Shown here: in pieces, positions 11 to 52,896 of the stretch | Layout: each line of letters starts with the position of its first letter | How positions within the stretch are numbered: the stretch's first letter is position 1 | Source of the DNA: Patescibacteria group bacterium | GTDB lineage: Bacteria > Patescibacteriota > Kazan-3B-28 | DNA: 64,000 bases | Direction: 5' to 3' | NCBI GenBank assembly: GCA_041649135.1 | Contig: JBAZNQ010000001.1 | Location: forward strand, 32,559-96,558 | Position numbers and translations under genes: made by a program | Notes under the pieces: generated by a model | Databases searched by the model: none | Told to the model about the DNA's origin: nothing | Seen by the model: the letters and a program-made list of their open reading frames with translations, nothing else

Positions 11-105
11 ATACGATTCTGGATGCGGTCGCCGTGGCGACCTTACCAGAATGACGAGGAGAAAAATAGATTCCGGACTAAATCCGGAATGACAAGGGAG
101 GGGTG
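11..105. repeat. MITE-like palindromic element, GTCATTC/GAATGAC family (attctgg...ccagaatgac; attccgg...ccggaatgac)
   Basis: Inverted repeats visible in sequence. Same family recurs at 5345, 5932-6300, 14263, 15405, 16470, 26395, 30926 and 51945. Confidence 0.55.
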
Positions 106-1432: not shown

Positions 1433-3457
1433 TTGGATAAATTGGTGAGATTTATTCTTATGTCTGATAAATATTATTACGCCAAACCAAAATCGAAATC
1501 ACGACTGTCGTACGGTCGGATTCCGGTCAGAACCGAAGACGAAAATATTCCGTCAGTTTTACAATTTCAGGCTCGTGGTCAAATTATGGATTTGGCATTT
1601 GTTGGTGAACAAGCTAGACGCATCCCATCCATTGCCCGACCCATCACTTGGTTGTGGTTAAAGATTGCCTTGTTGGTTCTTTTGGGTCTGCTAACTTATA
1701 CCGCTAGTGTGGCGTTGTATGGTGGCGCTAGTCAGATAAAAAAAGATACTGTGGGAACGGTGAATAAAGCTGTTGCCAAAATCGAAGCCGCCGCCCAAGC
1801 TGTTACTCTCCAAAATCTACCCGAGGCTAAACAAGATCTGATTGCCGCTGAAAATCTCTTTGCTACTGCCCAAAAAGATATTTTGTCTTTGGGACAAACC
1901 AATTTGTATATGTCAGGACTGGCTGGCGATAATTTTCAGATCATTGCTGGACAAAAATTAATTGATGCCGGACTAAATCTCGCTCAAGGCGGCCAGTTGT
2001 TAATCACTACTGCCGAACCAGCCCTACAATATTTCAATAGCGCTAATTCTACTTCCGGAACTATTAACGCTCAAACTACCCAAGATTTTCTCCCGCAGAT
2101 TATTCAAATGTTTTCTGCGAGTGTCCCCAACCTCGATAAAGCTCTAGTCAAAATCACCAAAGCTGACAACTTGCTCCAATCAATTCAACCTGACGCATTG
2201 GGGCCGGATTACACCACTACGCTCAAATTAGCTCAAGGCAAGGCCGCCACTCTCTCCGACGCGGTGGCAATGATGGATGTGCTGGCAAAACAATTGCCAC
2301 GGGCTCTCGGCTATCCTAATCCCCGCTCCTATCTGATCCTCAATCAAAACGACACCGAGCTTCGTCCCACAGGTGGTTTTATGGGGAGTGTGGCGATCTT
2401 GACGCTTCATCGTGGTAAAATTACCGATTTTTATGTTGATGACACTTATCGGATTGACGGTCAGCTTGCCGCTGCTCAAACTGGTGAAAAAGTTATCCCA
2501 AACGCCAATTTCGATCCGGATTTTCCATCCTCGGCAAAATACATTACCAAGCTTTATGAAGAAGCTGGTGGTGGAACACCAGACGGTGTAATCGCAATTA
2601 ACACCCAAGTGATGTCGGCATTTATGCAAGTCATTGGCGACATTGAATTGCCCAATCGCAAGCTAACTGTTACGTCAGATAATTTTGCCGAAGTTATTTA
2701 CGGCGAAATTCAAAAAGTCGAAAAGACTAGTACTCCCAAAGCCGTGTTGTCAGAACTTAGTCCGATCCTGATGCAAAAAATAATGTCGATGAGCCGTGAA
2801 GATATGAATCAATTAATGCCACTATTAGTTGATCAGCTGACCAAAAAAAATATTATGATTTACAGTCGGACATCGGATCTGGAAAAAATTCTCGCAACTC
2901 TGGATTGGTCGGGTGAACTTTATCAAACCGCTCCCAAACAGGATTATTTAATGATTGCGCGGGCCAACATGGGCGCCGTCAAAAGCAGCTATAACATTCA
3001 GGACGATATTCAACATCAGGTGAATATCAGCTCAACTGGAGAAATTACCGAAAAATTAATTCTCACCTACGTTCATACTGGCACTGGCAAAAAACCCGAT
3101 GGTACTAATAAAGATTATATTCGGGTTTATTTGCCGCAAGGTACGACAGTAAAAAATATTATTGGCTATGATATTGCGGAAAAAGTTGTTACTGAACCGG
3201 CTCATGAAAAAACTTTCTTTGGCTTTTATGTAACGACTGAACCAAATGAAACCAAAAAGATAATTTTAGATTATCAACTCCCCTTCACCCTCAACCTCGA
3301 AAAAGGGGAGAGCTACTCTGTCTACATCCAAAAACAAGCCGGTACCATTAATACTACCCTGACTTCCACTCTGAAAGCCCCCTCTACTGGCTTAAATGTT
3401 GCTGGTGCTATCAAAGACCTCTTCCGCGGGAGCTTTGTAGGGGATTTGAGTTTGTAA
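1433..3457 (+). CDS. DUF4012-domain membrane-anchored extracellular protein
   Basis: 674 aa with one N-terminal TM helix (ITWLWLKIALLVLLGLLTYTASVALYG). Contains the LNQNDTELRPTGGFMGSVA motif characteristic of DUF4012. The start may instead be the ATG at 1460. Confidence 0.6.
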   Translation: MDKLVRFILMSDKYYYAKPKSKSRLSYGRIPVRTEDENIPSVLQFQARGQIMDLAFVGEQARRIPSIARPITWLWLKIALLVLLGLLTYTASVALYGGASQIKKDTVGTVNKAVAKIEAAAQAVTLQNLPEAKQDLIAAENLFATAQKDILSLGQTNLYMSGLAGDNFQIIAGQKLIDAGLNLAQGGQLLITTAEPALQYFNSANSTSGTINAQTTQDFLPQIIQMFSASVPNLDKALVKITKADNLLQSIQPDALGPDYTTTLKLAQGKAATLSDAVAMMDVLAKQLPRALGYPNPRSYLILNQNDTELRPTGGFMGSVAILTLHRGKITDFYVDDTYRIDGQLAAAQTGEKVIPNANFDPDFPSSAKYITKLYEEAGGGTPDGVIAINTQVMSAFMQVIGDIELPNRKLTVTSDNFAEVIYGEIQKVEKTSTPKAVLSELSPILMQKIMSMSREDMNQLMPLLVDQLTKKNIMIYSRTSDLEKILATLDWSGELYQTAPKQDYLMIARANMGAVKSSYNIQDDIQHQVNISSTGEITEKLILTYVHTGTGKKPDGTNKDYIRVYLPQGTTVKNIIGYDIAEKVVTEPAHEKTFFGFYVTTEPNETKKIILDYQLPFTLNLEKGESYSVYIQKQAGTINTTLTSTLKAPSTGLNVAGAIKDLFRGSFVGDLSL

Positions 3458-4246
3458 AAAAACATCATCCACATTGTCGAGGATACTTTGTTCGATGATT
3501 TTTTTGGCTAGCTGCCCCCGGATAAATCGTGACTGATAACTCGGTGAGCGTTCAATTTCAACCATCACCAAAATGTTGGGTTGCACACCAGAGGGAAGGG
3601 TGACGCCATCGATTTTTGCTTTTAATTCGGATTCCTTACCAACACTAATGTTACCAAGACGCGTTCTCAGATCGGTATAACCCTGTATCATACCAACGAC
3701 CAGATCGGTTTTACTGTCTATAATCGGTGCTCCACTTGATCGATGATAGTGTTCGAATGAAGTTTCAAAAATCTCGTCGTCCATTAAGGAGCGGATATAA
3801 CCACTTTCAAAGCGTAATGTAGGTGGGGTAATCTCAAATCGAATATATGGGCTAGTTTCACCATAATGCCAAGCTCTTATCGGACTACCAATTTTGAGGG
3901 GTATCTCATCGCTTAAGTTTAGCCAACCATATGGCTTCAGATTACCCAAAACGCGACCGTAACAGATGTCAAAGTTGGCTAAATACAAGTTTAATTCAGA
4001 ATGTGGATTATAGTTGATTTTTAATAATGGGGAATCAGAAAGTGGGTTGCTTCTAAAAAATTGCGCGCGCAACAAACTAGAATCTTCCAGTTTCTCCGTA
4101 CTTTCATTTTCGAATACATGCCGTGCTGTTAAAAATCCTCCACTACTATCCACCAAAAATCCGGTGCCGAAATGACCCTGGGAAGTATTTCCTCCATCAG
4201 CGCGAGTTAAAGCAAAAACTGCTTTATGGTCATTGAAAGAATTCAT
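3392..4246 (-). CDS. Trypsin-like serine protease (S1 family)
   Basis: 284 aa. His motif TARHV and Ser motif SSGAPII (GDSGGP-like). The 3' end overlaps the preceding convergent gene by 66 nt. Confidence 0.7.
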   Translation of the reverse strand: MNSFNDHKAVFALTRADGGNTSQGHFGTGFLVDSSGGFLTARHVFENESTEKLEDSSLLRAQFFRSNPLSDSPLLKINYNPHSELNLYLANFDICYGRVLGNLKPYGWLNLSDEIPLKIGSPIRAWHYGETSPYIRFEITPPTLRFESGYIRSLMDDEIFETSFEHYHRSSGAPIIDSKTDLVVGMIQGYTDLRTRLGNISVGKESELKAKIDGVTLPSGVQPNILVMVEIERSPSYQSRFIRGQLAKKIIEQSILDNVDDVFLQTQIPYKAPAEEVFDSTSNI

Positions 4247-4253
4247 CCAAGTC

Positions 4254-4961
4254 TTATCTTACTTTTAAGTTCACCAATAGACCGCGTAGAATTTCTTTCG
4301 ACACTGGACGTCCAACTGCGATACCAGCTGAAATCTTAAAATTAGGATCGGTTTGTGACTGGTTGGTAATGTGACCAGACATAATCCCAATAACTTCACC
4401 ATTTTCTATCGAGGCAATTGGAGAGCCACTAAGGCCTGGATTGCTGTGCTTGTCAACAGCAAAGAATGACAACTCTCCATTGTTGGCATCTCTTTTTACT
4501 GAACTGATCATAGCACTGTGACTAGTAACGGTTAGTCCCCAGCCCATCTGCAATAGTGAATCTGCTAGCGGAAATCCAACAAACATTACATCACCTCCGG
4601 CAACCATCTCATCCGGGTTACCTAAATCGGCAGGAGTAGCCAGCAATACGTTGCTTACTCTAAATAACATGAGATCACGCGCGGCATCGACAACGACTGG
4701 CGCATCAAGTTTACACGCCGTGTAGCTGTCCAGTTTCTTGCCATCGGTCCCGTTGTAAAGCAGGATTCCTACATATGGTCGATCATTCTCTGGTATTCCG
4801 TTCCAAACATGGGCATTGGATACAATAAACTTTTCTTCGTCAATCTCTACCAAAAAACCAGTTCCCAATGTACGCAACTGTGTCGCTTTACCATCAGTTT
4901 TACTTACTACGAGTAAGCCAACCGAAGGGACGATTGTTTTAATTAATTCGGGTTTGTCCAT
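4254..4961 (-). CDS. Trypsin-like serine protease (S1 family), tandem paralog
   Basis: 235 aa. Motifs SNAHV and GLSGSPI. Lies 7 nt upstream of the second protease on the same strand. Confidence 0.7.
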   Translation of the reverse strand: MDKPELIKTIVPSVGLLVVSKTDGKATQLRTLGTGFLVEIDEEKFIVSNAHVWNGIPENDRPYVGILLYNGTDGKKLDSYTACKLDAPVVVDAARDLMLFRVSNVLLATPADLGNPDEMVAGGDVMFVGFPLADSLLQMGWGLTVTSHSAMISSVKRDANNGELSFFAVDKHSNPGLSGSPIASIENGEVIGIMSGHITNQSQTDPNFKISAGIAVGRPVSKEILRGLLVNLKVR

Positions 4962-5472
4962 GATAATTATGATAATCGATTATAACCAACTGCGTATTGT
5001 ACTCCCTCGAATCACCTTATGCAAAATTCTCCGCCATTGGAGCTTGGAACGTCAGACATTCCTTGAACATTCTTATCTAATCCGGCCCTTCAACGGAGGG
5101 TCGTCTTGAAATGAGCTAAATCTCTAGTGGGTGAAGCTGTTGTTTGATCCCGCCAGACTTGCCAAAGGCGAGCTGGGAACCGGTTGCTAAATGCAACCGG
5201 CGGGAGAGTTCAGCGAGAACGCCCAGAGATTTAGCCAATGAATAGACCCGCAGTTGCGGGCCACGGCTTTGGATACTTTCCCCAAGAGGAAAGTAACCGC
5301 GATCCAAGCGTCGCGGAGACGCTTGAAACAGAAACAAATTAAGAAAATGGATTCCTGCCTCCGCAGGAATGACAAGGAAAAAAAGAGCAAAAACCCCACG
5401 AAGTGGTAAACTTAAGGTAGAAATTGCTCTCTAATTGGGGTCGAATCTATATCAACCAATCGAGGTTAGATT
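4962..5472. other. Long (510-nt) hairpin-rich divergent intergenic region; candidate structured RNA or UTR
   Basis: Multiple stem-loops (ccggttgctaaatgcaaccgg, cgcgatccaagcgtcgcg, ctttccccaagaggaaag) plus one GTCATTCC-family hairpin at 5345-5375. No tmRNA, RNase P or SRP consensus could be recognised by eye. Confidence 0.3.
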
Positions 5473-5931: not shown

Positions 5932-6300
5932 CGTCATCCCCGACCCGCTTGCCCGCCTCTGGAGGGATCGGGGATCCAGAAAGAAACAATTAATATTTTT
6001 TTACTGTCTGGATTCCCGCCTACCTGCCCGAAGTGCTACCAGCCCGCAGTAGATACAGCGTTTCTGGCGGGCATCGTTGCAGGCGGGCGCGGGAATGACA
6101 GTTAGGGTTGGGCTAGATCCTTCGACTTCGCTTGGGATGACAAAGAAGGAGAGATTGCTTCCTGCCCGAATCGCTACGCCAGCCCGCAGTAGACACAGTG
6201 TCTCTGGCGGGCGAATCGTTGCGGGCGGGCGTCATTACACTTCTCGCAATGACAAAAAAGAAAGGATGACAGATTAAGGTAGTCCCTCCCCTCGGCAAGC
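5932..6300. repeat. Cluster of MITE-like palindromic elements (GTCATCCCCG...CGGGAATGAC family) with nested inverted repeats
   Basis: Terminal and nested inverted repeats are visible. The small ORFs in the track here are on both strands and likely spurious. Confidence 0.6.
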
Positions 6301-6364
6301 TCGGGACAGGCTCGTTCGTTGGGAATACAAAAAAGCGCCGATTGGCGCCACCACAACTTTTTCA

Positions 6365-6437
6365 TCGCAGATCCTTCCGTCGGCACGTCAACCATAGCTT
6401 TAGCGACGGTGGAAGCTTTAGCGTAGGAGGACTACCC
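6365..6437 (+). ncRNA. Conserved ~70-nt structured element, copy 1 of 3 (GATCCTYCC...TAGCTTTAGCG...GGAGGACTACC)
   Basis: Homologous to 32957-33025 and 42426-42494. The inner stem is CCGTCG/CGACGG here versus CCTTCG/CGAAG in the other copies (compensatory change). Confidence 0.4.
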
Positions 6438-6502
6438 AAACCTATTTCTCTACTCTCTATTCACTATTCACTATCCCTAATCCCTAGATACCAGGCTAGA
6501 TA

Positions 6503-7251: not shown

Positions 7252-7776
7252 CTACTTCGTCGGCGCAATGATGATATGGATACTTCGTCCCTGACGAATT
7301 GGAGCTTGTTCCATTTTAGCTTTATCGCGTAACCTGTCAACCAGCTTTTCTAGGACCTCATGTCCCAGCTCCATGTGAGCCATTTGGCGTCCCCTGAACA
7401 TCACCGAGGCCTTCACCTTATGACCGAGCCCTAGGAACTTCTCCGCCTGTTTCACTTTTACCTGTAAATCATGGTCGCCGATCATCGGCCCGAGTCGGAC
7501 TTCCTTGACGATCACCTCCTTATGATGTTTCTTCTGCCGCTGTTGAGCTTTGGTCAAATCATATTTGTATTTGCCCAAGTCCAGAATTTTTGCCACCGGT
7601 GGATTAGCATTGGGAGATACCTCTACCAAATCCATCTCTGCCGCCTCGGCCAATTTCATGGCTTCTTGTAAGGTCATTTCACCTCGTGGAGTGCCCTCAT
7701 GGTCAATCACAAACAGCCGAGAAGCTCGGATCATGTGATTGGCGCGGATTCTTGGTGGGGGAGTTGGTCTACTCAA
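7252..7776 (-). CDS. infC: Translation initiation factor IF-3. The true start is probably the internal ATG at 7734 (the N-terminus as drawn is over-extended).
   Basis: IF3 N- and C-terminal domain motifs (IRASRLFVIDHEGTPRGEMT...; MFRGRQMAHMELGHEVL). Confidence 0.85.
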   Translation of the reverse strand: MSRPTPPPRIRANHMIRASRLFVIDHEGTPRGEMTLQEAMKLAEAAEMDLVEVSPNANPPVAKILDLGKYKYDLTKAQQRQKKHHKEVIVKEVRLGPMIGDHDLQVKVKQAEKFLGLGHKVKASVMFRGRQMAHMELGHEVLEKLVDRLRDKAKMEQAPIRQGRSIHIIIAPTK

Positions 7777-7791
7777 TCTATCCTCAAACTA

Positions 7792-8592
7792 TCATTTCTT
7801 AGGTTTCTTGGCTACTTTTACCGGTATTTTTGGTACCAGTAATTCTACGTATTTGCTACAACCTTTTACTTCTACTGGCGTATATGCTGCAGTTTCATTA
7901 CCCATTAATACCGGCATTTTTCTGTCACCTTCAATTTCAATTTCATCTGCCCACAACTTGGTCGGATTTTTTGGTGAATCGGTAATAATTTCTAACCGAA
8001 GTTTTTTGCCACCTTTATCACTATTTAATTTAATCGTTAATTTTTGTAATGGCACAGTTAGTTGTAAATCTTCATCCACTTTTATTTCGGCGCTTACATT
8101 CATTGTCCGTTGCGTTTTTGTAGTGGTACCCAAAAACTTTTTTAACAAACCTTCGCCGCGCAGATATTTGCCCAACAAATTTTGATGCGACACAATTTCC
8201 AGACCATCAACAAAATAATGCTTCCCTAATTTTCCCAACCGGCGCTCGGTCTTATCTGGATTTGCCAACATTCGGCAGGCCATTTGCCAATTCTTAATTC
8301 CGAGGCTGTGAGCTAAATAGTTCGTTTTACCGACCGGAATAATTCCCAATGGCATGCCTTCATCTGCCATCGAATTAATGATGGTATTAACAGTCGCATT
8401 GCCGCCAACTGCTACGACACCGGTGATAGCAGTTTTTAGATTTTTTGTCAGCGCTTCTTCGACATCGATCAGATTATCTAGCTCAACTAGCGTAAATTTA
8501 ATTTTCAACCGCTCTAAATTAGCGAGCAGTCGATTCTTTATCTTCTGAAATCTTTTACCACCGGCTTCCGGATTGGCGAGAAGTAGATACAT
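7792..8592 (-). CDS. Lipid kinase, DAGK_cat / YegS-BmrU family (diacylglycerol kinase catalytic domain)
   Basis: 266 aa. The N-terminal region (MYLLLANPEAGGKRFQK...; GVVAVGGNATVN...; GIIPVGKTNYLAHSLGI) is a typical DAGK_cat ATP-NAD kinase fold. Confidence 0.65.
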   Translation of the reverse strand: MYLLLANPEAGGKRFQKIKNRLLANLERLKIKFTLVELDNLIDVEEALTKNLKTAITGVVAVGGNATVNTIINSMADEGMPLGIIPVGKTNYLAHSLGIKNWQMACRMLANPDKTERRLGKLGKHYFVDGLEIVSHQNLLGKYLRGEGLLKKFLGTTTKTQRTMNVSAEIKVDEDLQLTVPLQKLTIKLNSDKGGKKLRLEIITDSPKNPTKLWADEIEIEGDRKMPVLMGNETAAYTPVEVKGCSKYVELLVPKIPVKVAKKPKK

Positions 8593-14206: not shown

Positions 14207-14262
14207 ATAAACGGCTTCGCCGTAATACCCAATATCCAATTACCAATAAACAAAAAAATGAA

Positions 14263-14390
14263 CCGTCATTCCCGCGAAAGCGGGAATCCAGAAAAGAAAA
14301 TAAACAAAAAACTTTTTTCTGTTTTTGTCTGGATTCCCGATCCCTCCAGAGACGGGCAAGCGGGTCGGGAATGACGAAGGAACAGTTTGG
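14263..14390. repeat. MITE-like element with perfect 10-bp TIR GTCATTCCCG/CGGGAATGAC and nested inverted repeats
   Basis: gtcattcccgcgaaagcgggaatccag...ctggattccc...cgggaatgac. Confidence 0.65.
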
Positions 14391-15329: not shown

Positions 15330-15640
15330 AGAATAAATTCTAAATTCGAAATCCTAAATCCTAAACAAATCTTAAATCTTAAATTCTAATGCTTCAAACG
15401 TTTTCTCTGTCATTCCCGCCCTCCTCTTTGTCATTCCCGCGTAGGCGGGAATCCAGCCAAGAACAAAAACATTTTTTCTTTTTTCTGTCTGGATTCCGGA
15501 TCAAGTCCGGAATGACGAATTGTTTATTTTAGTAATTGGTATTTCGTGCTTCGTGCTTGTTTCGTATTTCGTATTTCGTATTTATCTCCCTAGATACTAG
15601 ATACTGAATTGTGTTTCGTGTTTCGGATTTACTTTCAAGA
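15330..15640. repeat. Left arm of a ~310-bp inverted repeat flanking the DUF218 gene
   Basis: Near-identical reverse complement of 16300-16650. Contains a MITE-like GTCATTCC element and tandem (ATTTCGT)n and TAGATAC motifs. Confidence 0.7.
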
Positions 15641-16250: not shown

Positions 16251-16299
16251 TATCTAGTATCTAGCGACTAGTATCTAGCGACAAGGATTAGTCACTAGA

Positions 16300-16650
16300 A
16301 AAAATCCGAAGCACGAAATCCGAAATCCGAAACACAATTCAGTATCTAGTATCTAGGGAGGTAAATTCGAAGCACGAAATTCGAAATCCGAAACAAGCAC
16401 GAAATCCAAAATCCGAAATCCGAAACAAATCCGAAGCACGAAATACCAATGATTAAAATAAACAATTCGTCATTCCGGACTTGATCCGGAATCCAGACAG
16501 AAAAAAGAAAAAATGTTTTTGTTCTTGGCTGGATTCCCGCCTACGCGGGAATGACAAAGAAGAGGGTGGGAATGACAGAGAAAACGTTTGAAGCATTAGA
16601 ATTTGGAATTTGTTTATAATTTAGATATTAGAGTTTCGAATTTTATAAAA
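16300..16650. repeat. Right arm of the ~310-bp inverted repeat flanking the DUF218 gene
   Basis: Reverse complement of 15330-15640, with small indels in the (AAATCCGAA)n tracts. Confidence 0.7.
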
Positions 16651-26394: not shown

Positions 26395-26600
26395 CATTAA
26401 GTCGTCATTCTGACAAGCCTCCCTCCCCGTCATTCTGAACTTCTCGTCATTCCAAACCCCTCCCCCGTCATTCTGGCAAGCGCAGCGCATCCAGAATCGT
26501 ATAAAGACAACCTTTTCCTTGTCATTCCGAGCGAGCGTAGCGAGTCGAAGAATCTAGACCGAAGGTCGCTCCGCTAGATCCTTCATTACCATTCAGGATG
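26395..26600. repeat. Tandem cluster of MITE-like GTCATTCYG...CAGAATC/GGATGAC hairpin elements between rpoC and rpsL
   Basis: Four GTCATTC heads followed by inverted tails. Confidence 0.55.
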
Positions 26601-26669
26601 ACAGATGTGAAGAACACCATTCACTCTCCTCTCTATTCTCTATTCACTATTCACTATTCACTATCTCCT

Positions 26670-27098
26670 ATGCCGACAGTTAATCAACTATTAAAGTCTG
26701 GCCGTAAAACCGCCGCCAAAAAGAGCAAATCACCTGCTCTGCAACGTCGTTTCAATACGCTCAAAAATCGGCCGGTGCGGTTAAAAAAGGGTTCTCCCTT
26801 CAAGCGGGGTGTCTGTACCAAAGTTACTACCATGACTCCTAAAAAACCAAACTCCGCTCTGCGAAAGATCGCTCGTGTTCGGTTAACCAATCGGATGGAA
26901 GTTACCGCCTACATTCCCGGCATCGGTCATAATCTGCAGGAGCACTCTATTGTTATGATCAGAGGCGGTCGGGTGAAAGACCTTCCGGGTGTTCGCTACC
27001 ATATTGTCCGAGGCCATTTGGATACGGCTGGTGCTGCCAATCGGAAACAGGGCCGGAGTAAATATGGCGCCAAAAAAACAGAAGCAATTAAAGCATAA
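26670..27098 (+). CDS. rpsL: 30S ribosomal protein S12
   Basis: [13 protein letters not shown]... The start is taken at the internal ATG 26670, directly after a CACTATTCACT repeat leader. Confidence 0.95.
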
Positions 27099-30396: not shown

Positions 30397-30840
30397 ATGG
30401 ACGGCAGCCGCTATATGCTGGCGAGCGCCGGTGTGGTGGAGGCTGTTATATCGGCGTTAAAGGCGATAGGCGTCGAGATACTGTATGTCACCGAACTTGT
30501 AAAGGTGCCTGAGTCGCTTGTCACCCGCCTACCCGCAGGATCTCTCCACCTGGCAGGCGATCGGGTTCATCTCTCCCCATCGATGAAAGCCGGGGAATAC
30601 ATAGCAAAAGCCAAGGATCTTGATGCTCTCAGGGAGGGCCTTGCCGCTGCCGGGATCCGCTCCATTACGGAGCACCACTCGGCTGACAAGATCACTGATC
30701 TCCTCATCACGGACGACCATTCTGATGGCAGCGACTCCACTAACGATGTGGACGACACCGGTACTGATGGGGGAGGGGGCGACAACACCTCATGGTCAGA
30801 TAACGACGACGACACCGGTACGGACCACACACCGGCCTAG
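30397..30840 (+). CDS. 147-aa protein of unknown function: ~100-aa N-terminal domain plus a poly-acidic D/T/G-rich disordered tail (DDHSDGSDSTNDVDDTGTDGGGGDNTSWSDNDDDTGTD)
   Basis: ~58% GC versus ~42% for flanking genes. The ATG is immediately after the upstream TAG, in the same frame. A terminator follows. Confidence 0.5.
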   Translation: MDGSRYMLASAGVVEAVISALKAIGVEILYVTELVKVPESLVTRLPAGSLHLAGDRVHLSPSMKAGEYIAKAKDLDALREGLAAAGIRSITEHHSADKITDLLITDDHSDGSDSTNDVDDTGTDGGGGDNTSWSDNDDDTGTDHTPA

Positions 30841-30903: not shown

Positions 30904-30925
30904 ATATGGAGAAGCCCCTTATTGT

Positions 30926-30993
30926 GTCATTCTGGGGAGCCCCACAGGGCGACGCCAGAATCTTATATACGATTCTGGACAAGCCAGAATGAC
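30926..30993. repeat. MITE-like GTCATTCTGG...CCAGAATGAC element
   Basis: Inverted termini. Related to the copy at 11-66. Confidence 0.55.
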
Positions 30994-31194
30994 GGAGCAA
31001 CGGTTGTTGACACCTCGCTCAAGATGACCAAAATATGAGGGACCACCTTCCCCCAGATTGGTTAGATTGGATTAAATTGGATAAATTGGTTAGATTTTCT
31101 CAAAAAACCCTTGCTTTATCCTCCGAATTTAGGTATTTTCTAAAAGTATCACTTTTTACACCTATACTAATCTGTAAAGTTTTTAGAGGGACTT

Positions 31195-32823: not shown

Positions 32824-32956
32824 GGTTTAGAGAAAAGAGACGAGAGTATAGAGAAAAATCTCTACGCTTTCATCTCTACTCTCTAACAGCAACAATTACT
32901 TCTGCGTCCCGCCATTGAATGGGACCAGAAGACAGATTTATATGAACCCCTATCCC

Positions 32957-33025
32957 TCGCAGATCCTCCGACTCGGTCCTTCGTAGCTTTAGCGAAGTAG
33001 GAAGCCTTGGCGTAGGAGGACTACC
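32957..33025 (+). ncRNA. Conserved ~70-nt structured element, copy 2 of 3, in the rpsJ-rplC spacer
   Basis: tcgcagatcctccgactcggtccttcgtagctttagcgaagtaggaagccttggcgtaggaggactacc, followed by a (CCTCTCT)n leader and the rplC ATG. Confidence 0.4.
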
Positions 33026-33070
33026 TGAACTTATCCCTCTCCTCTCTCCTCTCTCCTCTCTCCTCTATCT

Positions 33071-36630: not shown

Positions 36631-37302
36631 ATGGGACAAAAGATTCATCCACATTTATTCAGACTCGGTGTCACTTCCAAGTGGAAGGCGCGTTGGTTTG
36701 ACAGCAAAAACTACGCCAAGTTTTTATTGGAAGATTACAAAATTCGTCAGCTAGTCAACGCCAAATTAAAACGGGCAGCTAATGATTTGGAAATTGAACG
36801 GGTGGGTAGTGATATGAATTTAGTAATTCTCACTTCTCGTCCGGGTGTGATTATCGGCCGAGGTGGCGCCGGCGTTGAAGACTTAAAGCAAGCAGTCAAG
36901 AAATTAACTACTGCGACCAACGTTAATATCAATATTCAAGAGATCCATGACCCAGAAACTTCTGCTTCAGTCATCGCCAATAATATTGTTGAACAGATTG
37001 AAAAAAGAATTCCTTTCCGTCGAGCCATTAAACAATCAATTGAAGCTGCTCGTCAGGCCAAAGCCGAAGGTGTTCGGATCGTCATTGCTGGTCGGTTAAA
37101 TGGTGCGGAAATTGCTCGTCGGGAAGTCTTTGGCTTCGGTAAGGTACCATTACATACTATTAAGCGGTTCATTGATTATTCCTTTAAAACTGCCTACACC
37201 ACTTATGGCACGATCGGCGTTAAGGTTTGGGTGTTATTGCCATCAGTAAAAGAAGACGAAACCAATGACCAGCCACAATCAGCAGCTCATAACTCTTTAT
37301 AA
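36631..37302 (+). CDS. rpsC: 30S ribosomal protein S3
   Basis: 223 aa; KH domain. Confidence 0.95.
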   Translation: MGQKIHPHLFRLGVTSKWKARWFDSKNYAKFLLEDYKIRQLVNAKLKRAANDLEIERVGSDMNLVILTSRPGVIIGRGGAGVEDLKQAVKKLTTATNVNINIQEIHDPETSASVIANNIVEQIEKRIPFRRAIKQSIEAARQAKAEGVRIVIAGRLNGAEIARREVFGFGKVPLHTIKRFIDYSFKTAYTTYGTIGVKVWVLLPSVKEDETNDQPQSAAHNSL

Positions 37303-37364
37303 ATTTCCCACTACTTATCATTTTTCACTTTTAACTCTTCACTCTTAACTATTCACTATTCACT

Positions 37365-37772
37365 ATGTTAATCCCCAGAAAAGTAAAATATCGCAAGCAG
37401 CATCGAGGCAAAATGGGTGGCGTCGCCACTCGGGGGAGTGCTATTGCTTTTGGTAAATTCGGTCTCAAATCTCTGGAGGCGCATTGGATTACTGCCCGCC
37501 AGATCGAAGCCGCTCGTCGAGCTATTACCCACTTTATTAAACGTGAAGGCAAAGTCTGGATTCGGATCTTCCCGCATCAATCGGTTACCTCTACTCCCAA
37601 CGAAACCCGTATGGGTGGCGGTAAGGGGGCAGTCAGCCATTATGTTGCTACCATCAAACCAGGCACGATCTTATTTGAAATGGATGGAGTGCCGGAAGCA
37701 GTTGCCGAAAAGGCACTCAATCTGGCTGGCCACAAATTACCGATCAAAACTAAGTTTGTAACTAAGGTTTAA
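37365..37772 (+). CDS. rplP: 50S ribosomal protein L16
   Basis: [15 protein letters not shown]. Confidence 0.95.
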
Positions 37773-40261: not shown

Positions 40262-40387
40262 ATCGTAAAGTTAATCATTAATAGTGAATAGTTAAGGAAA
40301 ATAATTTAACCCCCCCCAATCTCTATTCTCTAATCTCTCTTCTCTCTTCTCTCTTCTCTACTCTCTAATCTCTACTCTCTAACTCCC

Positions 40388-40939
40388 ATGTCTAAAATCG
40401 GCAAACTTCCAATTGAGGTCCCAAACACAGTCACCATCACGTTGACCAATGATTTGGCTGTGGTTAAAGGTCCCAAGGGTGAGCTATCTGTTGCTATTCC
40501 CAAAGTGATCACTATTAAACAGGAAGGGAGTCAGCTGTTAGTTACTCGTATTAATGAAGACAAACCAACTCGAGCTCTCCACGGCTTAATTCGTTCGTTG
40601 GTTGCCAATGCCGTAGAAGGTGTTACGAATGGCTTTACTAAAACTCTGGAAATCAACGGTGTTGGTTATCGGGCTGAATTAAAAGGGCAAGTGGTCGTTT
40701 TACATCTTGGGTTCTCCCATCCGGTTGAGGTGCCGATCTTAAACGGGGTTGAAGTCAAATTGGAGAAGAACCAAGTCATTATTTCTGGTATTGATAAACA
40801 ACAGGTGGGCGAAATGGCGGCTGTCATTCGCTCCCACAAAAAACCCGAACCTTACAAAGGCAAAGGCATTAAATACATTGATGAAATTGTCCGCCGTAAA
40901 GCTGGTAAGACCGCCGCTACTGGTAAATCAGCTGGTTAA
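40388..40939 (+). CDS. rplF: 50S ribosomal protein L6
   Basis: 183 aa. Confidence 0.95.
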   Translation: MSKIGKLPIEVPNTVTITLTNDLAVVKGPKGELSVAIPKVITIKQEGSQLLVTRINEDKPTRALHGLIRSLVANAVEGVTNGFTKTLEINGVGYRAELKGQVVVLHLGFSHPVEVPILNGVEVKLEKNQVIISGIDKQQVGEMAAVIRSHKKPEPYKGKGIKYIDEIVRRKAGKTAATGKSAG

Positions 40940-42361: not shown

Positions 42362-42425
42362 CAGTTAATAGTGAATAATTAGGGAACAATATATAAATCG
42401 TCGCTAGCGACACCTGAACTTTTCA

Positions 42426-42494
42426 TCGCAGATCCTCCGACTCTGTCCTTCGTAGCTTTAGCGAAGTAGGAAGCCTTGGCGTAGGAGGACTACC
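42426..42494 (+). ncRNA. Conserved ~70-nt structured element, copy 3 of 3, in the rplO-secY spacer
   Basis: Differs from copy 2 by about one substitution. Confidence 0.4.
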
Positions 42495-42519
42495 AAAACT
42501 CTTAACTTTTCACTCTCTA

Positions 42520-47619: not shown

Positions 47620-48555
47620 ATGATTGAAGACATCAACATCCCAAGTATCAAGCTCGAAGAAAAAGCGATTAATCGCGCCGTCTTCGTAGTCGAGCCGTGC
47701 TTTCCGGGTTACGGCACAACTTTAGGTAATTCCCTTCGTCGAGTTTTGTTAAGCTCTTTGCCGGGTGCGGCTATCATTGCTGTCAAAATCGCTGGTGTTG
47801 ATCACGAATTTTCGCCGGTCATCGGTGTCAAAGAAGACGCTGTTGGTATTATCTTGAATCTCAAAAAGCTTCGGTTTATTATGCACGAAGCCGGTCCAGT
47901 CGCTTTGAAATACAAGGGTGGTAAGACTGGTGAAATTACTGGTGCTGATTTAGAAATTCCTAGTACGGTTACCTTGGTCAATCCCGAACAATACATTGCC
48001 ACAGTCTCCGAAAAAACCGCTCTGGAAATGGAAATTCAGGTCGCCAAAGGTCGCGGATATATGCCCAGTGAAGCCATGGATGAAAAGAATTTCTCCATCG
48101 GTACGATTGCTGTTGATGCCGCTTTCTCTCCAGTCGTCAAAGTCATGTTTAATGTCGAGCCAACTCGTGTTGGCGAAATGATCAACTATGACAAGCTGAC
48201 AATTAATGTTTTAACCGATGGGACGATTACTCCGGAAGAGGCCGTTCGCCAAAGTGCTCAAATTTTGGCTAAGCAATTAACTGTCTTCGGTGTTGATTTA
48301 GAGAATCTGCCGATCGGTGAAACACCAACCGAAGCCGAAGCCGTCGATGTAAAAGACTTCAGTATTGATGAGGTTAATCTATCAGTTCGGACCACTAACG
48401 CATTAGTTAACAATGGTATCAAAAAAGTTAGCGAAATTCTGGAAGTTGGTGCCGAAAAACTCGGGACGATGAAAGGTCTAGGTGCAAAAGCGTTGGACGA
48501 AATTACTGACAAATTAGCCGAGCTTGGTATTAAGTTTAATAATCCCGATTCTTAA
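47620..48555 (+). CDS. rpoA: DNA-directed RNA polymerase subunit alpha
   Basis: 311 aa. Confidence 0.97.
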   Translation: MIEDINIPSIKLEEKAINRAVFVVEPCFPGYGTTLGNSLRRVLLSSLPGAAIIAVKIAGVDHEFSPVIGVKEDAVGIILNLKKLRFIMHEAGPVALKYKGGKTGEITGADLEIPSTVTLVNPEQYIATVSEKTALEMEIQVAKGRGYMPSEAMDEKNFSIGTIAVDAAFSPVVKVMFNVEPTRVGEMINYDKLTINVLTDGTITPEEAVRQSAQILAKQLTVFGVDLENLPIGETPTEAEAVDVKDFSIDEVNLSVRTTNALVNNGIKKVSEILEVGAEKLGTMKGLGAKALDEITDKLAELGIKFNNPDS

Positions 48556-48658
48556 TTCCCCCTCATTCCTCTCTATTCTCTATTCTCCTCTCTACTCTCT
48601 AACCTCTTCTCTCTACTCTTAACTTTTCACTTTTAACTATTAACTATTAACTTTTCTT

Positions 48659-49012
48659 ATGCGTCATTTGGTCAAAGGCAAAAAGCTGGGGAGAGTCAAG
48701 CGACAACGCACCGCGTTGATTCGCAATCTCTTAACTTCGCTCATTTTACATGAGCGTATCGTTACTACCGAAGCCAAGGCCAAAGCTCTTCGCCCGAAGA
48801 TCGAACGGTTAGTTACTATCGCCAAAAAGGGTAACCTAATGGCCAAACAGCAGTTGATGAAACCTCTTTACAATAACCAGATCGTAGTTAAAAAAATGTT
48901 ACAGGTTATTGCTCCCCGTTATCAGGGACGCGTTGGTGGCTATGTCCGGATTGTTCGCAAAGGAACTCGGGTCGGTGACGCCGCGCCAACTTCCGTAATC
49001 GAATTTGTATAA
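48659..49012 (+). CDS. rplQ: 50S ribosomal protein L17
   Basis: 117 aa. Confidence 0.93.
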   Translation: MRHLVKGKKLGRVKRQRTALIRNLLTSLILHERIVTTEAKAKALRPKIERLVTIAKKGNLMAKQQLMKPLYNNQIVVKKMLQVIAPRYQGRVGGYVRIVRKGTRVGDAAPTSVIEFV

Positions 49013-51331: not shown

Positions 51332-51697
51332 ATGTTCAAGTTTGAAAAACTAAATGTGTGGCAGTCTGCTCGAATTTTCATTCAGACAATATATAAACTT
51401 AGTCAGCAATTCCCATCGAGTGAATTATACGGGTTAACATCACAAATTCGTCGTGCAGCCGTATCAGTAGCACTGAATATCGCCGAGGGTTGTAATTCAG
51501 GTTCTAACAAAGAGTTTAATCGGTTTCTCTATCTGTCTTCTCGTTCCCTTGACGAAGTTATTAGCTGCCTGTACCTTGCAATGGACCTAGAATACATTCA
51601 AAAGACAGATTTTGATGTCATCTATCAAGCTGCCGAAAATCTCGGCAAACAAATATCTGGTTTAAAAAGGTTCCTAGCCCAATCCGTCAGTCTATAA
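51332..51697 (+). CDS. Four-helix-bundle protein (TIGR02436; 23S rRNA intervening-sequence protein family)
   Basis: MFKFEKLNVWQSARIFIQTIYKLSQQFPSSELYGLTSQIRRAAVSVALNIAEG. Confidence 0.7.
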   Translation: MFKFEKLNVWQSARIFIQTIYKLSQQFPSSELYGLTSQIRRAAVSVALNIAEGCNSGSNKEFNRFLYLSSRSLDEVISCLYLAMDLEYIQKTDFDVIYQAAENLGKQISGLKRFLAQSVSL

Positions 51698-51912: not shown

Positions 51913-51944
51913 TATCTAGCATTCAGTATCTAGCATCTAGCTCC

Positions 51945-52160
51945 GCGTCATTCCTGCGGAGGCAGGAATCCATTTTCTTTTTGTCATCCCGAGCGTAGTC
52001 GAGGGATCTAGCGTAGTGCTATCAAAAATCATCTTAAAACCCCGCTCCCTCTTCTTGTCATCCCCGCGCAGGCGGGGATCCACCCCGTTTTGTCATCCTG
52101 AACTCGTTTCAGGATCTAAAAATCACCTATCAAAACCCCGCTCCAGTAGCGGGGTTTATG
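51945..52160. repeat. Cluster of MITE-like GTCATYC hairpin elements plus a terminator-like hairpin (aaaaccccgctccagtagcggggttta)
   Basis: Repeats visible by eye. Confidence 0.55.
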
Positions 52161-52182: not shown

Positions 52183-52256
52183 AGGGGCGTCGTTCAGTGG
52201 TAGGACGTGGGTCTCCAAAACCCAAGACGAGTGTCCGATTCACTCCGCCCCTGCCA
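52183..52256 (+). tRNA. tRNA-Trp (CCA). The T-loop reads UCCGAUU (C at position 55), which is non-canonical.
   Basis: Acceptor aggggcg/cgcccct; anticodon stem tgggt/accca, loop ctccaaa. Confidence 0.75.
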
Positions 52257-52299
52257 GCAAAATTATTCGCTTTCACAGTGGATTTTATTTTGATCCAAA

Positions 52300-52896
52300 G
52301 TGGAAGTTAGAACCGTAAGGCGATGTTATACTAAACTTGTGTATGATCAAGTTAAACAGTTTGTAGAAGAATCTTTTAGTGCTGGGGTTAATGAGAAGAG
52401 TATGAAGCACTTTGAGCAAACAGTTGCTTGGCTTAAACGTTTGAAACCCGATGCTGATGAGCCAATGTTAATTGCTGCCTATTCGCACGATATTGCCAGA
52501 GCATTGCGACAAGTAGATTCAAAAACCTTGTTTAAAAATAAAGAACTTAACGATCCCGAGGTGTTGAAAGAGCATCAAGAGCAGGGAGCCCAAATCATGG
52601 GAGAGTTTCTGAGGGATAATGATTACGACGAAGTGTCAGTCAAACGGGTAGAGAACATGATACGCCACCACGAAGAGGGTGGTGATGAGGAATCTAACCT
52701 TCTGATGGATGCTGACAGTCTGAGTTATTTGGAGGTTAATGCCAAAAAACATATTGGACTAATTGATGTTTGGGGAAAGGGAAAAGTTGAACGGAAAATT
52801 GATTGGATGTATAGCAGGATTTCTTCTGCTCGGGCTAAAGAATTTGCCCAGCCATATTACCAAGAAGTGAAGGACTTACTGAACAAGCATTTCTAA
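52300..52896 (+). CDS. HD-domain metal-dependent phosphohydrolase (cassette 1)
   Basis: H...HD motif (KHFEQT...LIAAYSHDIARAL). The stop TAA lies inside the att-like repeat core TTCTAAC. Confidence 0.6.
   Translation: MEVRTVRRCYTKLVYDQVKQFVEESFSAGVNEKSMKHFEQTVAWLKRLKPDADEPMLIAAYSHDIARALRQVDSKTLFKNKELNDPEVLKEHQEQGAQIMGEFLRDNDYDEVSVKRVENMIRHHEEGGDEESNLLMDADSLSYLEVNAKKHIGLIDVWGKGKVERKIDWMYSRISSARAKEFAQPYYQEVKDLLNKHF

What the first reader, a model, noticed from the sequence alone, without database searches (positions are those of the whole stretch)
14263..14390. MITE-like palindromic element family (GTCATTCC…GGAATGAC) at nine or more intergenic loci
Elements have perfect or near-perfect terminal inverted repeats (e.g. 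GTCATTCCCG…CGGGAATGAC), nested internal palindromes (GGGAATCCAGA…TCTGGATTCCC) and variable-length cores. They are found at 11-105, 5345-5375, 5932-6300 (cluster), 14263-14390, 15405-15530, 16470-16590, 26395-26600 (4 tandem), 30926-30993 and 51945-52135, in both orientations and always intergenic. This density, 9 loci in 64 kb, is high for a streamlined genome. Several flank the other unusual features: the fusA-tuf islet, the DUF218 inverted repeats and the tRNA-Trp cassette array. The elements may therefore mark recombination hot-spots.
Basis: seen in the sequence. Interest (0 to 1): 0.5.

Follow-up and report, generated by a model that had tools for sequence, protein, structure and literature searches.

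The report
NTS-like hairpin repeats in CPR bacterium
The "MITE-like" elements are short hairpin-forming DNA repeats of a known, widespread kind (CGTC-tagged REPs, the same 28-base motif as the Neisseria dRS3/NTS that a small single-strand DNA nuclease cuts), and they are unusually dense in the small genome of an uncultured Patescibacteria bacterium.

Summary
A strict unit (Y-GTC tag, perfect stem of at least 7 bp starting A-T/T-A, then C) occurs 16 times in the window against 0.01 in shuffles.

They are not MITEs. The supposed terminal inverted repeats are self-contained hairpins of about 25 nt that also occur singly and in tandem, and there is no target-site duplication.

They fit CGTC-tagged REPs (Di Nocera 2013; CGTC-1 is Neisseria dRS3). 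The focal copy, 14264-14291, matches the Neisseria NTS consensus exactly (Chenal 2025). NTS is the ssDNA site cut by the GIY-YIG nuclease SsnA. The GTC before the stem and the C after it, which that study found critical, are invariant here, while stem positions 3, 5, 6 and 8 change in a compensatory way.

Syntenic sister genomes (Kazan-related Patescibacteria) have spacers of about 20-110 nt where the window has 250-400 nt clusters, so the expansion is lineage-specific. An identical 28-mer flanks an Ssn homologue in a viral contig, and Ssn homologues flanked by GTC-tagged hairpins occur in related MAG loci.

No ssn gene lies in the 84 kb I could read, so the nuclease partner is inferred. Verdict: new member of a known kind, modest interest.

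The parts
15..56 (-). D-type unit CGTC-ATTCTGG-(23-nt loop)-CCAGAAT-C. It is the right arm of an HH dimer whose left arm lies just upstream of window base 1.
   Evidence: The identical 40-mer occurs in two JGI contigs in other contexts.
69..94 (-). B-type unit TGTC-ATTCCGGA-TTTAG-TCCGGAAT-C.
   Evidence: ssDNA fold -7.5 kcal/mol, z -4.5.
5350..5374 (-). C-type unit TGTC-ATTCCTGC-GGAG-GCAGGAAT-C with a CCATTTTCTT tail. This is the only subtype that also looks like an intrinsic terminator.
   Evidence: 95% identical over 38 nt to 51942-51979 (I8).
5932..6100 (.). HH dimer. The A' unit at 5932-5976 (+) has a 24-nt loop. An A/T-rich spacer with CCAGA/TCTGG ends follows. The A unit at 6011-6100 (-) has a loop carrying a ~70-nt palindromic insert.
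   Evidence: 5932-6002 is 86% complementary to 14306-14376 (I3).
6112..6271 (-). Degenerate or variant heads: an E-type at 6112-6142, a second copy of the ~70-nt palindrome at 6155-6229, the palindrome CGTCATTACACTTCTCGCAATGAC at 6230-6253, and a bare head at 6264-6270.
   Evidence: 6112-6144 is 91% complementary to 51980-52012 (I24).
14264..14291 (+). Focal A-type unit CGTCATTCCCGCGAAAGCGGGAATCCAG. It matches the Neisseria NTS consensus CGTCATTCCCGCGMAVGCGGGAATCYRG exactly.
   Evidence: ssDNA hairpin -9.0 kcal/mol, z -4.1. The identical 28-mer lies 15 nt upstream of an Ssn-homologue gene in L136.
14292..14331 (.). A/T-rich spacer of the focal HH dimer. The complementary CCAGA / TCTGG ends are the unit tails (14288-14292 and 14328-14332).
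   Evidence: The D16 family has 4 copies of this spacer type. The whole dimer 14255-14385 folds at -29.6 kcal/mol, z -5.1.
14332..14376 (-). A' unit CGTC-ATTCCCGA-(24-nt loop)-TCGGGAAT-C, the right arm of the focal HH dimer.
   Evidence: The fold is only marginally better than shuffles (z -1.4).
15408..15517 (.). Truncated head at 15408-15428, then an HH dimer: A unit 15429-15453 (+), spacer, B unit 15492-15517 (-).
   Evidence: It lies inside arm 1 of the 242-nt inverted duplication I1. Seven sister genomes have LysM and DUF218 adjacent here.
16468..16577 (.). Mirror copy of the previous part: B unit 16468-16493 (+), spacer, A unit 16532-16556 (-), truncated head 16557-16577 (-).
   Evidence: Sister genome L006 has three different units in the same DUF218-LemA spacer, and five others have 50-110 nt spacers.
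26403..26605 (.). Array after rpoC. Three truncated heads lie at 26404, 26429 and 26446 (+). A complete D unit is at 26466-26498 (+). E-like variants are at 26520-26560 (+) and 26573-26603 (-).
   Evidence: The rpoC-rpsL spacer is 20 nt in L006 and L008 against about 320 nt here.
30925..30994 (.). D/D HH dimer: 30925-30962 (+) with a 19-nt loop, the spacer TTATATAC, and 30971-30994 (-).
   Evidence: Folds -11.4 and -5.5 kcal/mol, z -4.1 and -5.0.
51946..52116 (+). Head-to-tail array of four units between rpmG and tRNA-Trp: C 51946-51970, E 51982-52012, F 52056-52080 (ATCCCCGC stem) and G 52091-52116 (ATCCTGAA stem).

Best explanation
**What the elements are.** They are CGTC-tagged repetitive extragenic palindromes, the class that includes Neisseria dRS3/NTS and the 'Ssn-related motifs' (SRM).

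**Anatomy of a unit.**
- A pyrimidine-rich run of about 10 nt.
- An unpaired Y-GTC tag.
- A 7-8 bp stem that always begins A-T, T-A.
- A loop of 4-5 nt, or 14-24 nt in some copies.
- An invariant C after the stem.

**Arrangement.** Units occur as singletons, as tag-outward (HH) dimers with a conserved A/T-rich spacer that can fold into one long hairpin, and as head-to-tail arrays. They have accumulated in the intergenic spacers of this Kazan-related Patescibacteria genome but not in its sister genomes.

**Inferred mechanism.** When the DNA is single-stranded (at replication, during repair, or on DNA taken up by transformation) each unit folds. An Ssn-family GIY-YIG nuclease then binds it and cuts a few nucleotides upstream of the tag, on one strand only. 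Ssn genes flanked by such units, in an IS-like layout, would be the source of the repeats. Spread would resemble REP/REPIN spread by RAYT.

**Shown versus inferred.**
- Shown: family identity, anatomy, enrichment, lineage-specific gain and dispersal.
- Inferred: an Ssn partner in this genome, cleavage, the copying mechanism, and any effect on transformation or recombination.
For: **1. Sequence identity.**
- 14264-14291 matches the published NTS consensus exactly.
- Four copies fit the published SRM pattern against 0.22 expected.

**2. Anatomy fits CGTC REPs** (an 8-9 bp stem with AT first, a 4-5 nt loop, a CCA tail, HH dimers predominant with conserved spacers having complementary ends).
- All 15 distinct hairpins have A-T, T-A, then Y-R, C-G, Y-R.
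- The base at -1 is always Y and the base at +1 is always C.
- There are six HH dimers.

**3. The functionally critical positions are the invariant ones.** The three bases before the palindrome matter for SsnA cleavage and the C after it matters for binding. Here those positions never vary, while stem positions 3, 5, 6 and 8 change on both sides with 100% pairing.

**4. Folding.** Units fold as ssDNA hairpins of -5.5 to -11.4 kcal/mol, z -2.5 to -5.

**5. Lineage-specific gain.**
- Syntenic loci of the seven nearest genomes have spacers of about 20-110 nt where the window has 250-400 nt clusters.
- The window has 8 units in its syntenic 20 kb against 0-1 in each relative. Density is 26.6 per 100 kb in the window, against about 1.3 per 100 kb across 80 mostly Patescibacteria loci (the script printed 1.9 because seven short alignment rows were counted as loci).

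**6. Dispersal of specific variants.**
- 38 nt at 95% identity, 46 kb apart.
- 71 nt at 86% identity, 8 kb apart.
- The same 40-mer at four unrelated loci, including two JGI contigs.

**7. Link to the nuclease.**
- In L136 the identical 28-mer and its inverted copy bracket a 97-aa GIY-YIG gene.
- That protein is 59% identical to the N. gonorrhoeae ssnA-locus product.
- It is 52% identical to a GIY-YIG protein in MAG locus L061. The L061 protein is itself 52% identical to the Neisseria one (E 5e-31) and is flanked by two tag-outward GTC hairpins.
- Patescibacteria locus L038 has another homologue (38%, E 6e-20) flanked by palindromes.
Against: - No Ssn or other GIY-YIG gene exists in the window or its 10-kb flanks. 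tblastn with five queries gave nothing below E 0.2, and the Pfam lists and the motif scans were also empty. The remaining ~336 kb of the contig could not be read.
- At least seven stem sequences coexist in 64 kb. N. meningitidis SsnA lost activity when the palindrome sequence was changed with the structure preserved. So one enzyme may not serve them all.
- E-type units and some long-loop units do not fold better than shuffles.
- Head-to-tail arrays and long loops are atypical for CGTC REPs as described.
- No copying mechanism for CGTC REPs or NTS has been demonstrated in any organism.
Confidence: 0.7

Rival explanations
1. These are true MITEs: non-autonomous derivatives of a DDE-type insertion sequence. 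The GTCATTCCCG...CGGGAATGAC terminal inverted repeats are bound by a transposase, and insertion creates target-site duplications.
For: The dimers are 68-167 bp, have inverted ends, lie between genes and are multi-copy.
Against: - No flanking direct repeat is shared by the six dimers or six singletons. The best matches are 0-3 nt, with one 5-nt case, and 6% of random position pairs give at least 4 nt under the same search.
- The 'TIR' is a complete hairpin unit that also occurs alone and in tandem.
- The two arms of a dimer are of different subtypes.
- No transposase is present in 84 kb.
- The ends match a repeat class described as lacking any dedicated transposase.
Confidence: 0.04
2. The hairpins act only at the RNA level, as transcription terminators or 3'-end stabilisers of the upstream gene. 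They were selected for structure alone, with no nuclease partner.
For: - The non-dimer heads in unidirectional or convergent spacers (after rpoC, after rpmG and beside rplT, 12 heads) are co-oriented with a flanking gene.
- CGTC and GTAG REPs lie mostly downstream of ORFs in other bacteria.
- The two C-type units have a T-rich tail and are called terminator-like.
Against: - Only 2 of 16 units are followed by a T tract.
- An RNA hairpin does not explain the invariant unpaired GTC and the 3' C, nor the identity to a motif conserved across phyla.
- Units also sit upstream of genes, between tRNA genes and in divergent spacers.
- This role could coexist with the main explanation.
Confidence: 0.12
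3. The units are decaying relics. They were spread by an Ssn-type or other element that has since been lost from this lineage, and they now persist as neutral spacer DNA that is shuffled by recombination.
For: - There are truncated heads, poorly folding E-type copies and long-loop copies.
- No partner gene lies in 84 kb.
- One pair of loci arose by segmental inverted duplication.
- In the published survey, 19% of SRM-rich genomes lack an SsnA homologue.
Against: - Many units keep perfect 8-bp stems with compensatory changes and invariant tag and C.
- Dispersed copies are near-identical.
- Density is about 20-fold higher than in sister and other Patescibacteria loci. This argues for recent gain rather than old decay.
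Confidence: 0.12
4. All copies are fragments of one larger duplicated region rather than a dispersed family.
For: 15342-15583 and 16402-16643 are a 242-nt inverted duplication at 89% identity that carries the units with it.
Against: - Elsewhere similarity ends within a few bases of the units or dimers (33-71 nt; I3, I8, I24).
- The subtypes differ between loci.
- The same unit occurs in unrelated flanks in L207 and L208, where only 47-70 nt are shared.
Confidence: 0.02

Closest known systems
CGTC-tagged REPs, family CGTC-1 (Neisseria dRS3, Rickettsia RPE-6); Di Nocera, De Gregorio & Rocco 2013, PMC3733652
   Same: - Unpaired CGTC/TGTC tag.
- 8-bp stem starting A-T, T-A.
- 4-5 nt loop in most units.
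- C-initial tail, often CCA.
- Tag-outward HH dimers whose conserved spacers have complementary ends.
- Extragenic location.
- Several stem, loop and tail subtypes in one genome.
- Clustering as in Neisseria and Wolbachia.
   Different: - The host phylum, Patescibacteria/CPR, is not among the five phyla listed there.
- Six of 15 distinct units have 14-24 nt loops, and one has a 70-nt insert.
- Head-to-tail arrays are prominent here, but 'negligible' in that survey.
- A pyrimidine-rich tract of about 10 nt precedes the tag.
NTS / Ssn-related motifs with the GIY-YIG ssDNA nuclease SsnA (cd10448); Chenal et al. 2025, PMC11893778
   Same: - One copy is identical to the NTS consensus and three more fit the SRM pattern.
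- The GTC before the palindrome and the C after it are invariant.
- The units are oriented, intergenic and clustered.
- The host is a symbiont-type organism with a reduced genome, like the SRM-rich Rickettsia and Wolbachia.
   Different: - No ssn gene was seen in the part of the genome that could be read.
- Most units have stems outside the published SRM pattern (ATTCTGG, ATTCCGGA, ATTCCTGC, ATCCTGAA).
- No biochemical or genetic data exist for this lineage.
GTAG REPs, BIMEs and REPINs mobilised by RAYT (TnpA-REP) tyrosine transposases
   Same: - Short tagged hairpins.
- Inverted doublets that fold into one long hairpin.
- Recognition expected on single-stranded DNA.
- The enzyme gene is flanked by its own repeats.
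- The likely working analogy for how the units spread.
   Different: - The tag is CGTC, not GTAG.
- The associated enzyme family is GIY-YIG, not HUH/Y1.
- Transposition has been shown or strongly inferred for REPINs, but not for CGTC or NTS units.
Neisseria intergenic mosaic elements (NIMEs)
   Same: Intergenic arrays in which dRS3-type inverted repeats bracket short repeat blocks and are interleaved with other repeat families (the definition of NIMEs is from my own knowledge of the N. meningitidis genome papers).
   Different: - The internal blocks here are unrelated to Neisseria RS elements. They are A/T-rich spacers, a 70-nt palindrome and heptamer tracts.
- The arrays are much smaller.
Bacterial MITEs such as Neisseria Correia elements
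   Same: Small size, inverted ends, intergenic position, multi-copy.
   Different: - MITEs have TIRs derived from an IS plus a target-site duplication (TA for Correia, from my own knowledge).
- Here there is no TSD, and the ends are independent hairpin units.

Membership tests
CGTC-tagged REP superfamily | Unpaired terminal tag CGTC (or TGTC) on one side of the palindrome. | tested here: met
   All 29 cluster heads have C or T at -1 followed by GTC. The tag is unpaired in the predicted folds.
CGTC-tagged REP superfamily | Stem of 8-9 bp with complementary A-T, T-A in the first two positions. | tested here: met
   All 15 distinct hairpins start A-T, T-A. Stems are 7 bp (D-type) or 8 bp.
CGTC-tagged REP superfamily | Loop of 4-5 nt. 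| tested here: inconclusive
   9 of 15 distinct units have 4-5 nt loops and 6 have 14-24 nt loops. One further unit has a 70-nt insert.
CGTC-tagged REP superfamily | Short unpaired tail, mostly CCA. | tested here: met
   The base at +1 is C in 15 of 15 units. The tail is CCA in 7, and CTA, CTT or CGT in the rest.
CGTC-tagged REP superfamily | Mostly HH (tag-outward) dimers with conserved spacers; extragenic. | tested here: met
   There are six HH dimers. The spacer family D16 has CCAGA/TCTGG ends. All units are intergenic. Two head-to-tail arrays are an atypical addition.
NTS / SRM-Ssn system | Match to the NTS consensus or the SRM degenerate pattern. | tested here: met
   14264-14291 matches NTS exactly. 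There are four SRM hits against 0.22 expected. Most other units fall outside the published pattern.
NTS / SRM-Ssn system | Conserved GTC upstream of the palindrome and C immediately after it. These are the positions critical for cleavage and binding. | tested here: met
   Both are invariant in all complete units.
NTS / SRM-Ssn system | A cd10448-type GIY-YIG (ssn) gene in the same genome, usually flanked by the motif. | tested here: inconclusive
   It is absent from the 84 kb readable. Homologues flanked by GTC hairpins exist in L061 and L038.
NTS / SRM-Ssn system | Strand-specific binding and cleavage of the ssDNA form by the nuclease. | not testable with these tools
   This needs biochemistry.
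MITE | Target-site duplication flanking the element. | tested here: not met
   There is no consistent flanking direct repeat at 12 elements here, nor at the dimers in L207 and L208.
MITE | Terminal inverted repeats shared with an autonomous IS that encodes the transposase. | tested here: not met
   No transposase was found in 84 kb. The ends are independent hairpin units found singly and in tandem. The rest of the genome was not examined.
GTAG REP / RAYT | GTAG tag and an associated Y1 (RAYT) transposase. | tested here: not met
   The tag is YGTC. There is no IS200/IS605-like gene in the Pfam lists.
Intrinsic terminator | G+C-rich hairpin followed directly by a T tract. | tested here: not met
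   Only the two C-type units pass the scan.

The most novel reading that the evidence does not exclude
An Ssn/NTS system is currently active and expanding, in a REPIN-like way, in an ultra-small Patescibacteria genome.

**Observations behind this reading**
- Density is about 20-fold higher than in sister genomes.
- At least seven stem variants coexist, which implies several or relaxed nuclease specificities.
- There are head-to-tail arrays with truncated heads, and insertions into the loops of existing units.

**Possible meaning**
- Patescibacteria are thought to depend on DNA uptake. Strand-specific cutting at these sites could decide which incoming or replicating single-stranded DNA survives. 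That would make the repeats a genome-wide control of recombination in this group.
- The 28-mer identical to that of Neisseria would then reflect horizontal spread of ssn-NTS modules, possibly on viruses.
Probability: 0.2. Interest if true: 0.6.

Novelty: new member of a known kind. Interest (0 to 1): 0.3.

Why it matters
- **Annotation.** The call should be corrected. These are not transposon remnants but sites of a repeat class whose protein partner was identified only in 2025.
- **Host range.** Finding the canonical Neisseria NTS, letter for letter, at high density in a Kazan-related Patescibacteria genome extends that class to the candidate phyla radiation. Neither key paper lists that group, and my paper searches turned up no report of it.
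- **Pattern across hosts.** It fits the published observation that SRM-rich genomes are often those of symbionts.
- **A testable link.** If the genome also encodes an Ssn nuclease, the lineage offers a natural test of whether NTS/Ssn systems modulate DNA uptake or recombination outside Neisseria.
- **Practical point.** The clusters explain much of the spacer-length variation between otherwise syntenic sister genomes. They are also likely points of assembly breakage and of spurious ORF calls.

Tried and rejected
- **Rfam** at gathering thresholds found only tRNAs, so the units are not a described RNA family.
- **Partner gene in the window.** GIY-YIG motif scans of six-frame translations were empty. 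Precomputed Pfam for the called genes, Pfam on the unannotated ORFs and tblastn with five GIY-YIG queries, four of them Ssn homologues, all found nothing.
- **Strain polymorphism.** The only second assembly (Logan SRR8542065) is base-for-base identical over 18.9 kb, so it gives no information.
- **First look-up** with the TTG-start DUF218 ORF found nothing. Look-ups with ATG-start proteins worked.
- **Exact empty site for the focal dimer.** The tRNA-Leu/tRNA-Leu spacer is not alignable between genomes. It holds an HNH gene in L007 and L009, the two tRNAs are adjacent in L008, and L052 has another palindrome there.
- **MAFFT alignment of units** (A1) put the stems out of register, so pair statistics were computed from the stem ends inward in a script instead.
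- **Supplementary tables** of the Ssn paper are not held, so I could not check whether any Patescibacteria genome was in its survey.
- **Walking along the 420-kb contig, or screening GIY-YIG homologues for this sample.** I considered both and dropped them. Each step needs a whole-database protein search for a small chance of success.
- **Segmental duplication as a general explanation.** Rejected, because it holds for one pair of loci only.

Full report
**Observation.** The sequence at 14263-14390 reads CGTCATTCCCGCGAAAGCGGGAATCCAGA, then a 35-nt A/T-rich stretch, then TCTGGATTCCCGATCC...GGGTCGGGAATGACG.
- GTCATTCC occurs 15 times in the window against 1.9 expected.
- I defined a strict unit as [CT]GTC, a perfect stem of at least 7 bp starting AT, a loop, and a C right after the stem. 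That gives 16 real units against a mean of 0.01 in 200 dinucleotide-preserving shuffles.
- Adding truncated and variant heads gives 29 heads in 10 intergenic clusters, two of them in the 10 kb upstream of the window. The 15 other GTCAT[TC]C matches lie outside those clusters, mostly in coding sequence, and none has a tag-stem-C hairpin.

**Anatomy.** Fifteen distinct complete hairpins share one plan.
- A pyrimidine-rich run of about 10 nt comes first (Y fraction 0.66-1.0 from -10 to -1).
- GTC follows, then a stem whose pairs are A-T, T-A, Y-R, C-G, Y-R, N-N', G-C (one A-T), and an eighth pair in nine of them.
- The loop is 4-5 nt in nine units and 14-24 nt in six. The next base is an invariant C.
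- Stem positions 3, 5, 6 and 8 differ between units on both sides and always stay paired.
- As single-stranded DNA the canonical units fold at -5.5 to -11.4 kcal/mol with z-scores of -2.5 to -5. A variant (GTCATCCCGAGCGTAGTCGAGGGATCTAGC and relatives) and one long-loop unit do no better than shuffles.

**Arrangement.** Units occur in four ways.
- Alone.
- As six tag-outward dimers of 68-167 bp, whose two arms are often of different subtype.
- As two head-to-tail arrays, after rpoC and after rpmG.
- With other sequence inserted in the loop.

The dimer spacers form a small family with complementary CCAGA/TCTGG ends (D16). The focal dimer can fold into one hairpin of -29.6 kcal/mol (z -5.1).

**What it is not.**
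- No target-site duplication flanks the six dimers or six singletons, nor the dimers found in two metagenome contigs.
- No transposase is among the genes of the window and its flanks.
- Only the two units with a CCATTTTCTT tail pass a terminator scan.
- Rfam has no matching family.

The MITE and plain-terminator readings therefore fail on their defining features.

**What it is.** Two papers describe this class.
- Di Nocera et al. 2013 (PMC3733652) sorted bacterial REPs into GTAG- and CGTC-tagged superfamilies.
  - CGTC REPs have an unpaired CGTC or TGTC tag, 8-9 bp stems starting with complementary A-T pairs, 4-5 nt loops and a short tail, mostly CCA.
  - They occur mostly as HH dimers with the tags outside.
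  - CGTC-1 in Neisseria is dRS3.
  - No transposase was associated with them.
- Chenal et al. 2025 (PMC11893778) extended dRS3 to the 28-nt NTS, CGTCATTCCCGCGMAVGCGGGAATCYRG.
  - The 94-aa GIY-YIG protein SsnA binds the NTS hairpin only as ssDNA and cuts a few nt upstream.
  - The three bases before the palindrome govern cleavage, and the C after it governs binding.
  - The loop is dispensable, and ssn genes are typically flanked by such motifs.
  - In N. meningitidis the system lowers transformation by NTS-bearing DNA.

Window 14264-14291 matches the NTS consensus exactly. Three further copies fit their degenerate SRM pattern, giving 4 hits against 0.22 expected. The positions that are invariant here are the ones they found critical.

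**Link to the nuclease.**
- A scan of viral contigs found the exact NTS in more than 120 contigs.
- In one of them (L136) the 28-mer identical to the window's copy lies 15 nt upstream of a 97-aa GIY-YIG gene, and an inverted copy lies 15 nt after its stop.
- That protein is 59% identical to the product of the NTS-flanked ssnA locus of N. gonorrhoeae.
- Among 80 loci from other, mostly Patescibacteria, genomes, two carry homologues.
  - L061 is 52% identical to the Neisseria protein (E 5e-31), passes the Pfam GIY-YIG threshold, and is bracketed by two tag-outward GTC hairpins.
  - L038, labelled Patescibacteria, is 38% identical (E 6e-20) and flanked on both sides by a CTTCGTCCCGATT.AATCGGGACTACG palindrome.
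- Ssn-hairpin modules therefore exist in this part of the tree.

**Host and history.**
- The window is part of a 420-kb contig of an ENA metagenome assembly.
- By HtpX similarity and conserved gene order its nearest species-level relatives are three unnamed Patescibacteria MAGs (75-77%), followed by candidate division Kazan genomes (about 60-65%).
- Gene order from the DUF4012 gene to fusA is the same in seven relatives, which allows spacer-by-spacer comparison.
  - rpoC to rpsL is 20 nt in L006 and L008 (TAA tatcagatagact + 7 nt + ATG). In the window it is about 320 nt, beginning with the same tatcagataaact.
  - LysM and DUF218 are adjacent in all seven relatives, but about 300 nt apart here.
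  - DUF218 to LemA is about 50-110 nt in six relatives. In the closest one (L006) it is 385 nt with three units of the same subtypes but different sequence.
- The window has 8 strict units in the syntenic 20 kb against 0-1 in each relative. Its density is 26.6 per 100 kb, against about 1.3 per 100 kb over 1.2 Mb of other loci. The script printed 1.9 because seven short alignment rows were counted.
- The expansion is therefore specific to this lineage.

**Dispersal.** Specific variants are dispersed.
- 38 nt at 95% identity, 46 kb apart.
- 71 nt at 86% identity, 8 kb apart.
- 33 nt at 91% identity, 46 kb apart.
- One 40-nt long-loop unit at four unrelated places: window 15-56, L002 ~6000-6040, and JGI contigs L207 and L208. 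In each JGI contig it forms an HH dimer with a different partner arm.

**Mechanism and its limits.** The family assignment rests on direct sequence tests and I hold it at about 0.9. The working model has three inferred parts.
- Folding in single-stranded DNA, recognition and one-strand cleavage by an Ssn nuclease.
- Spread from ssn genes flanked by their own hairpins.
- Consequences for recombination or DNA uptake.

I hold that model at about 0.5-0.6 for this organism, for these reasons.
- No ssn gene lies in the 84 kb I could read, and the rest of the genome is out of reach.
- At least seven stem types coexist. The Neisseria enzyme is sequence- as well as structure-specific.
- No copying mechanism has been shown for this class anywhere.

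An RNA-level role for co-oriented units downstream of genes may coexist with the model. Relic status of some copies (truncated heads, poorly folding variants) is likely.

The clusters do sit where sister genomes differ.
- The focal dimer occupies a tRNA spacer that holds an HNH endonuclease gene in L007 and L009.
- The tRNA-Leu order is swapped in L008 and L010.
- The 5.3-6.3 kb clusters border a roughly 3-kb segment absent from L008.

This matches what has been said of dRS3 in Neisseria. It is a correlation only, because variable spacers may simply be where insertions are tolerated.

**Verdict.** This is a correct observation of a real repeat family, mislabelled as MITE-like. It is a new member, in a new phylum and at notable density, of the known CGTC-REP / dRS3 / NTS class.

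Noticed in passing
window 26610-26674, 37292-37376, 40307-40395, 48555-48664, 16294-16442 and many other spacers: Tandem 7-nt tracts (TTCACTA, TCTCTAC, TTAACTT, AAATCCG and so on) fill most intergenic spacers directly upstream of start codons. They are pyrimidine-rich on the sense strand, often with no obvious Shine-Dalgarno (families D1-D5, D9, D11, D12). Sister genomes have short versions plus AAGGAGG, and the JGI contigs L207 and L208 share the style.
   Followed up: partly
window 6361-6459, 32950-33048, 42419-42517: A 99-nt repeat (D8, 63-87% identity) lies upstream of rplT, rplC and secY. It contains CTTCGTAGCTTTAGCGAAG-type palindromes. Related CTTCG...CTACG palindromes occur in L006, L052 and flanking the Ssn homologue of L038.
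   Followed up: no
window 6020-6088 and 6155-6229: An imperfect palindrome of about 70 nt (CCTGCCCGAA..GCCAGCCCGCAGTAGA..TCTGGCGGGC..GTTGC.GGCGGGCG) is present twice, once inside the loop of a CGTC unit.
   Followed up: no
window 52183-60000 (52251, 52888, 54002, 55742, 57425, 58815, 59909): The 3' end of tRNA-Trp and 60-190 nt of adjoining sequence recur at least six times downstream of the tRNA (D6, D7, D10, D13, D19). This looks like serial integration of gene cassettes at tRNA-Trp.
   Followed up: no
window 15342-15583 and 16402-16643: A 242-nt inverted duplication (89%) brackets the DUF218 gene. All seven sister genomes have LysM and DUF218 directly adjacent.
   Followed up: partly
L007 1905-2378; L009 ~7420-7895: A 157-aa HNH endonuclease gene (Pfam HNH, E 7.6e-06) sits between tRNA-Leu(taa) and tRNA-Leu(cag) in two relatives, at the place where the window has the focal dimer.
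   Followed up: partly
window 3392-5340: Two trypsin-like protease genes on the minus strand, plus about 240 nt of G+C-rich palindromic non-coding sequence, have no counterpart in any of the four relatives whose loci cover this interval (L008, L009, L010, L052). In L008 the DUF4012 gene is 48 nt from rplT.
   Followed up: no
L206 1195-1473 (N. gonorrhoeae NZ_CP119142.1): The gonococcal ssnA locus reads as frameshifted near its 5' end in this strain: MHGLYFSKPT, a stop, and then the rest of the protein in another frame. The record is a 2.17-Mb chromosome filed as a plasmid in PLSDB.
   Followed up: no
window 51332-51697: A 23S rRNA-intervening-sequence protein (bAvd-like four-helix bundle, Pfam E 2.9e-36) is encoded between nusG and rpmG.
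   Followed up: no
window 30397-30840: A 147-aa ORF with no Pfam match, followed by the D/D dimer, lies between fusA and tuf. From my own knowledge of str operons, fusA and tuf are usually adjacent.
   Followed up: no
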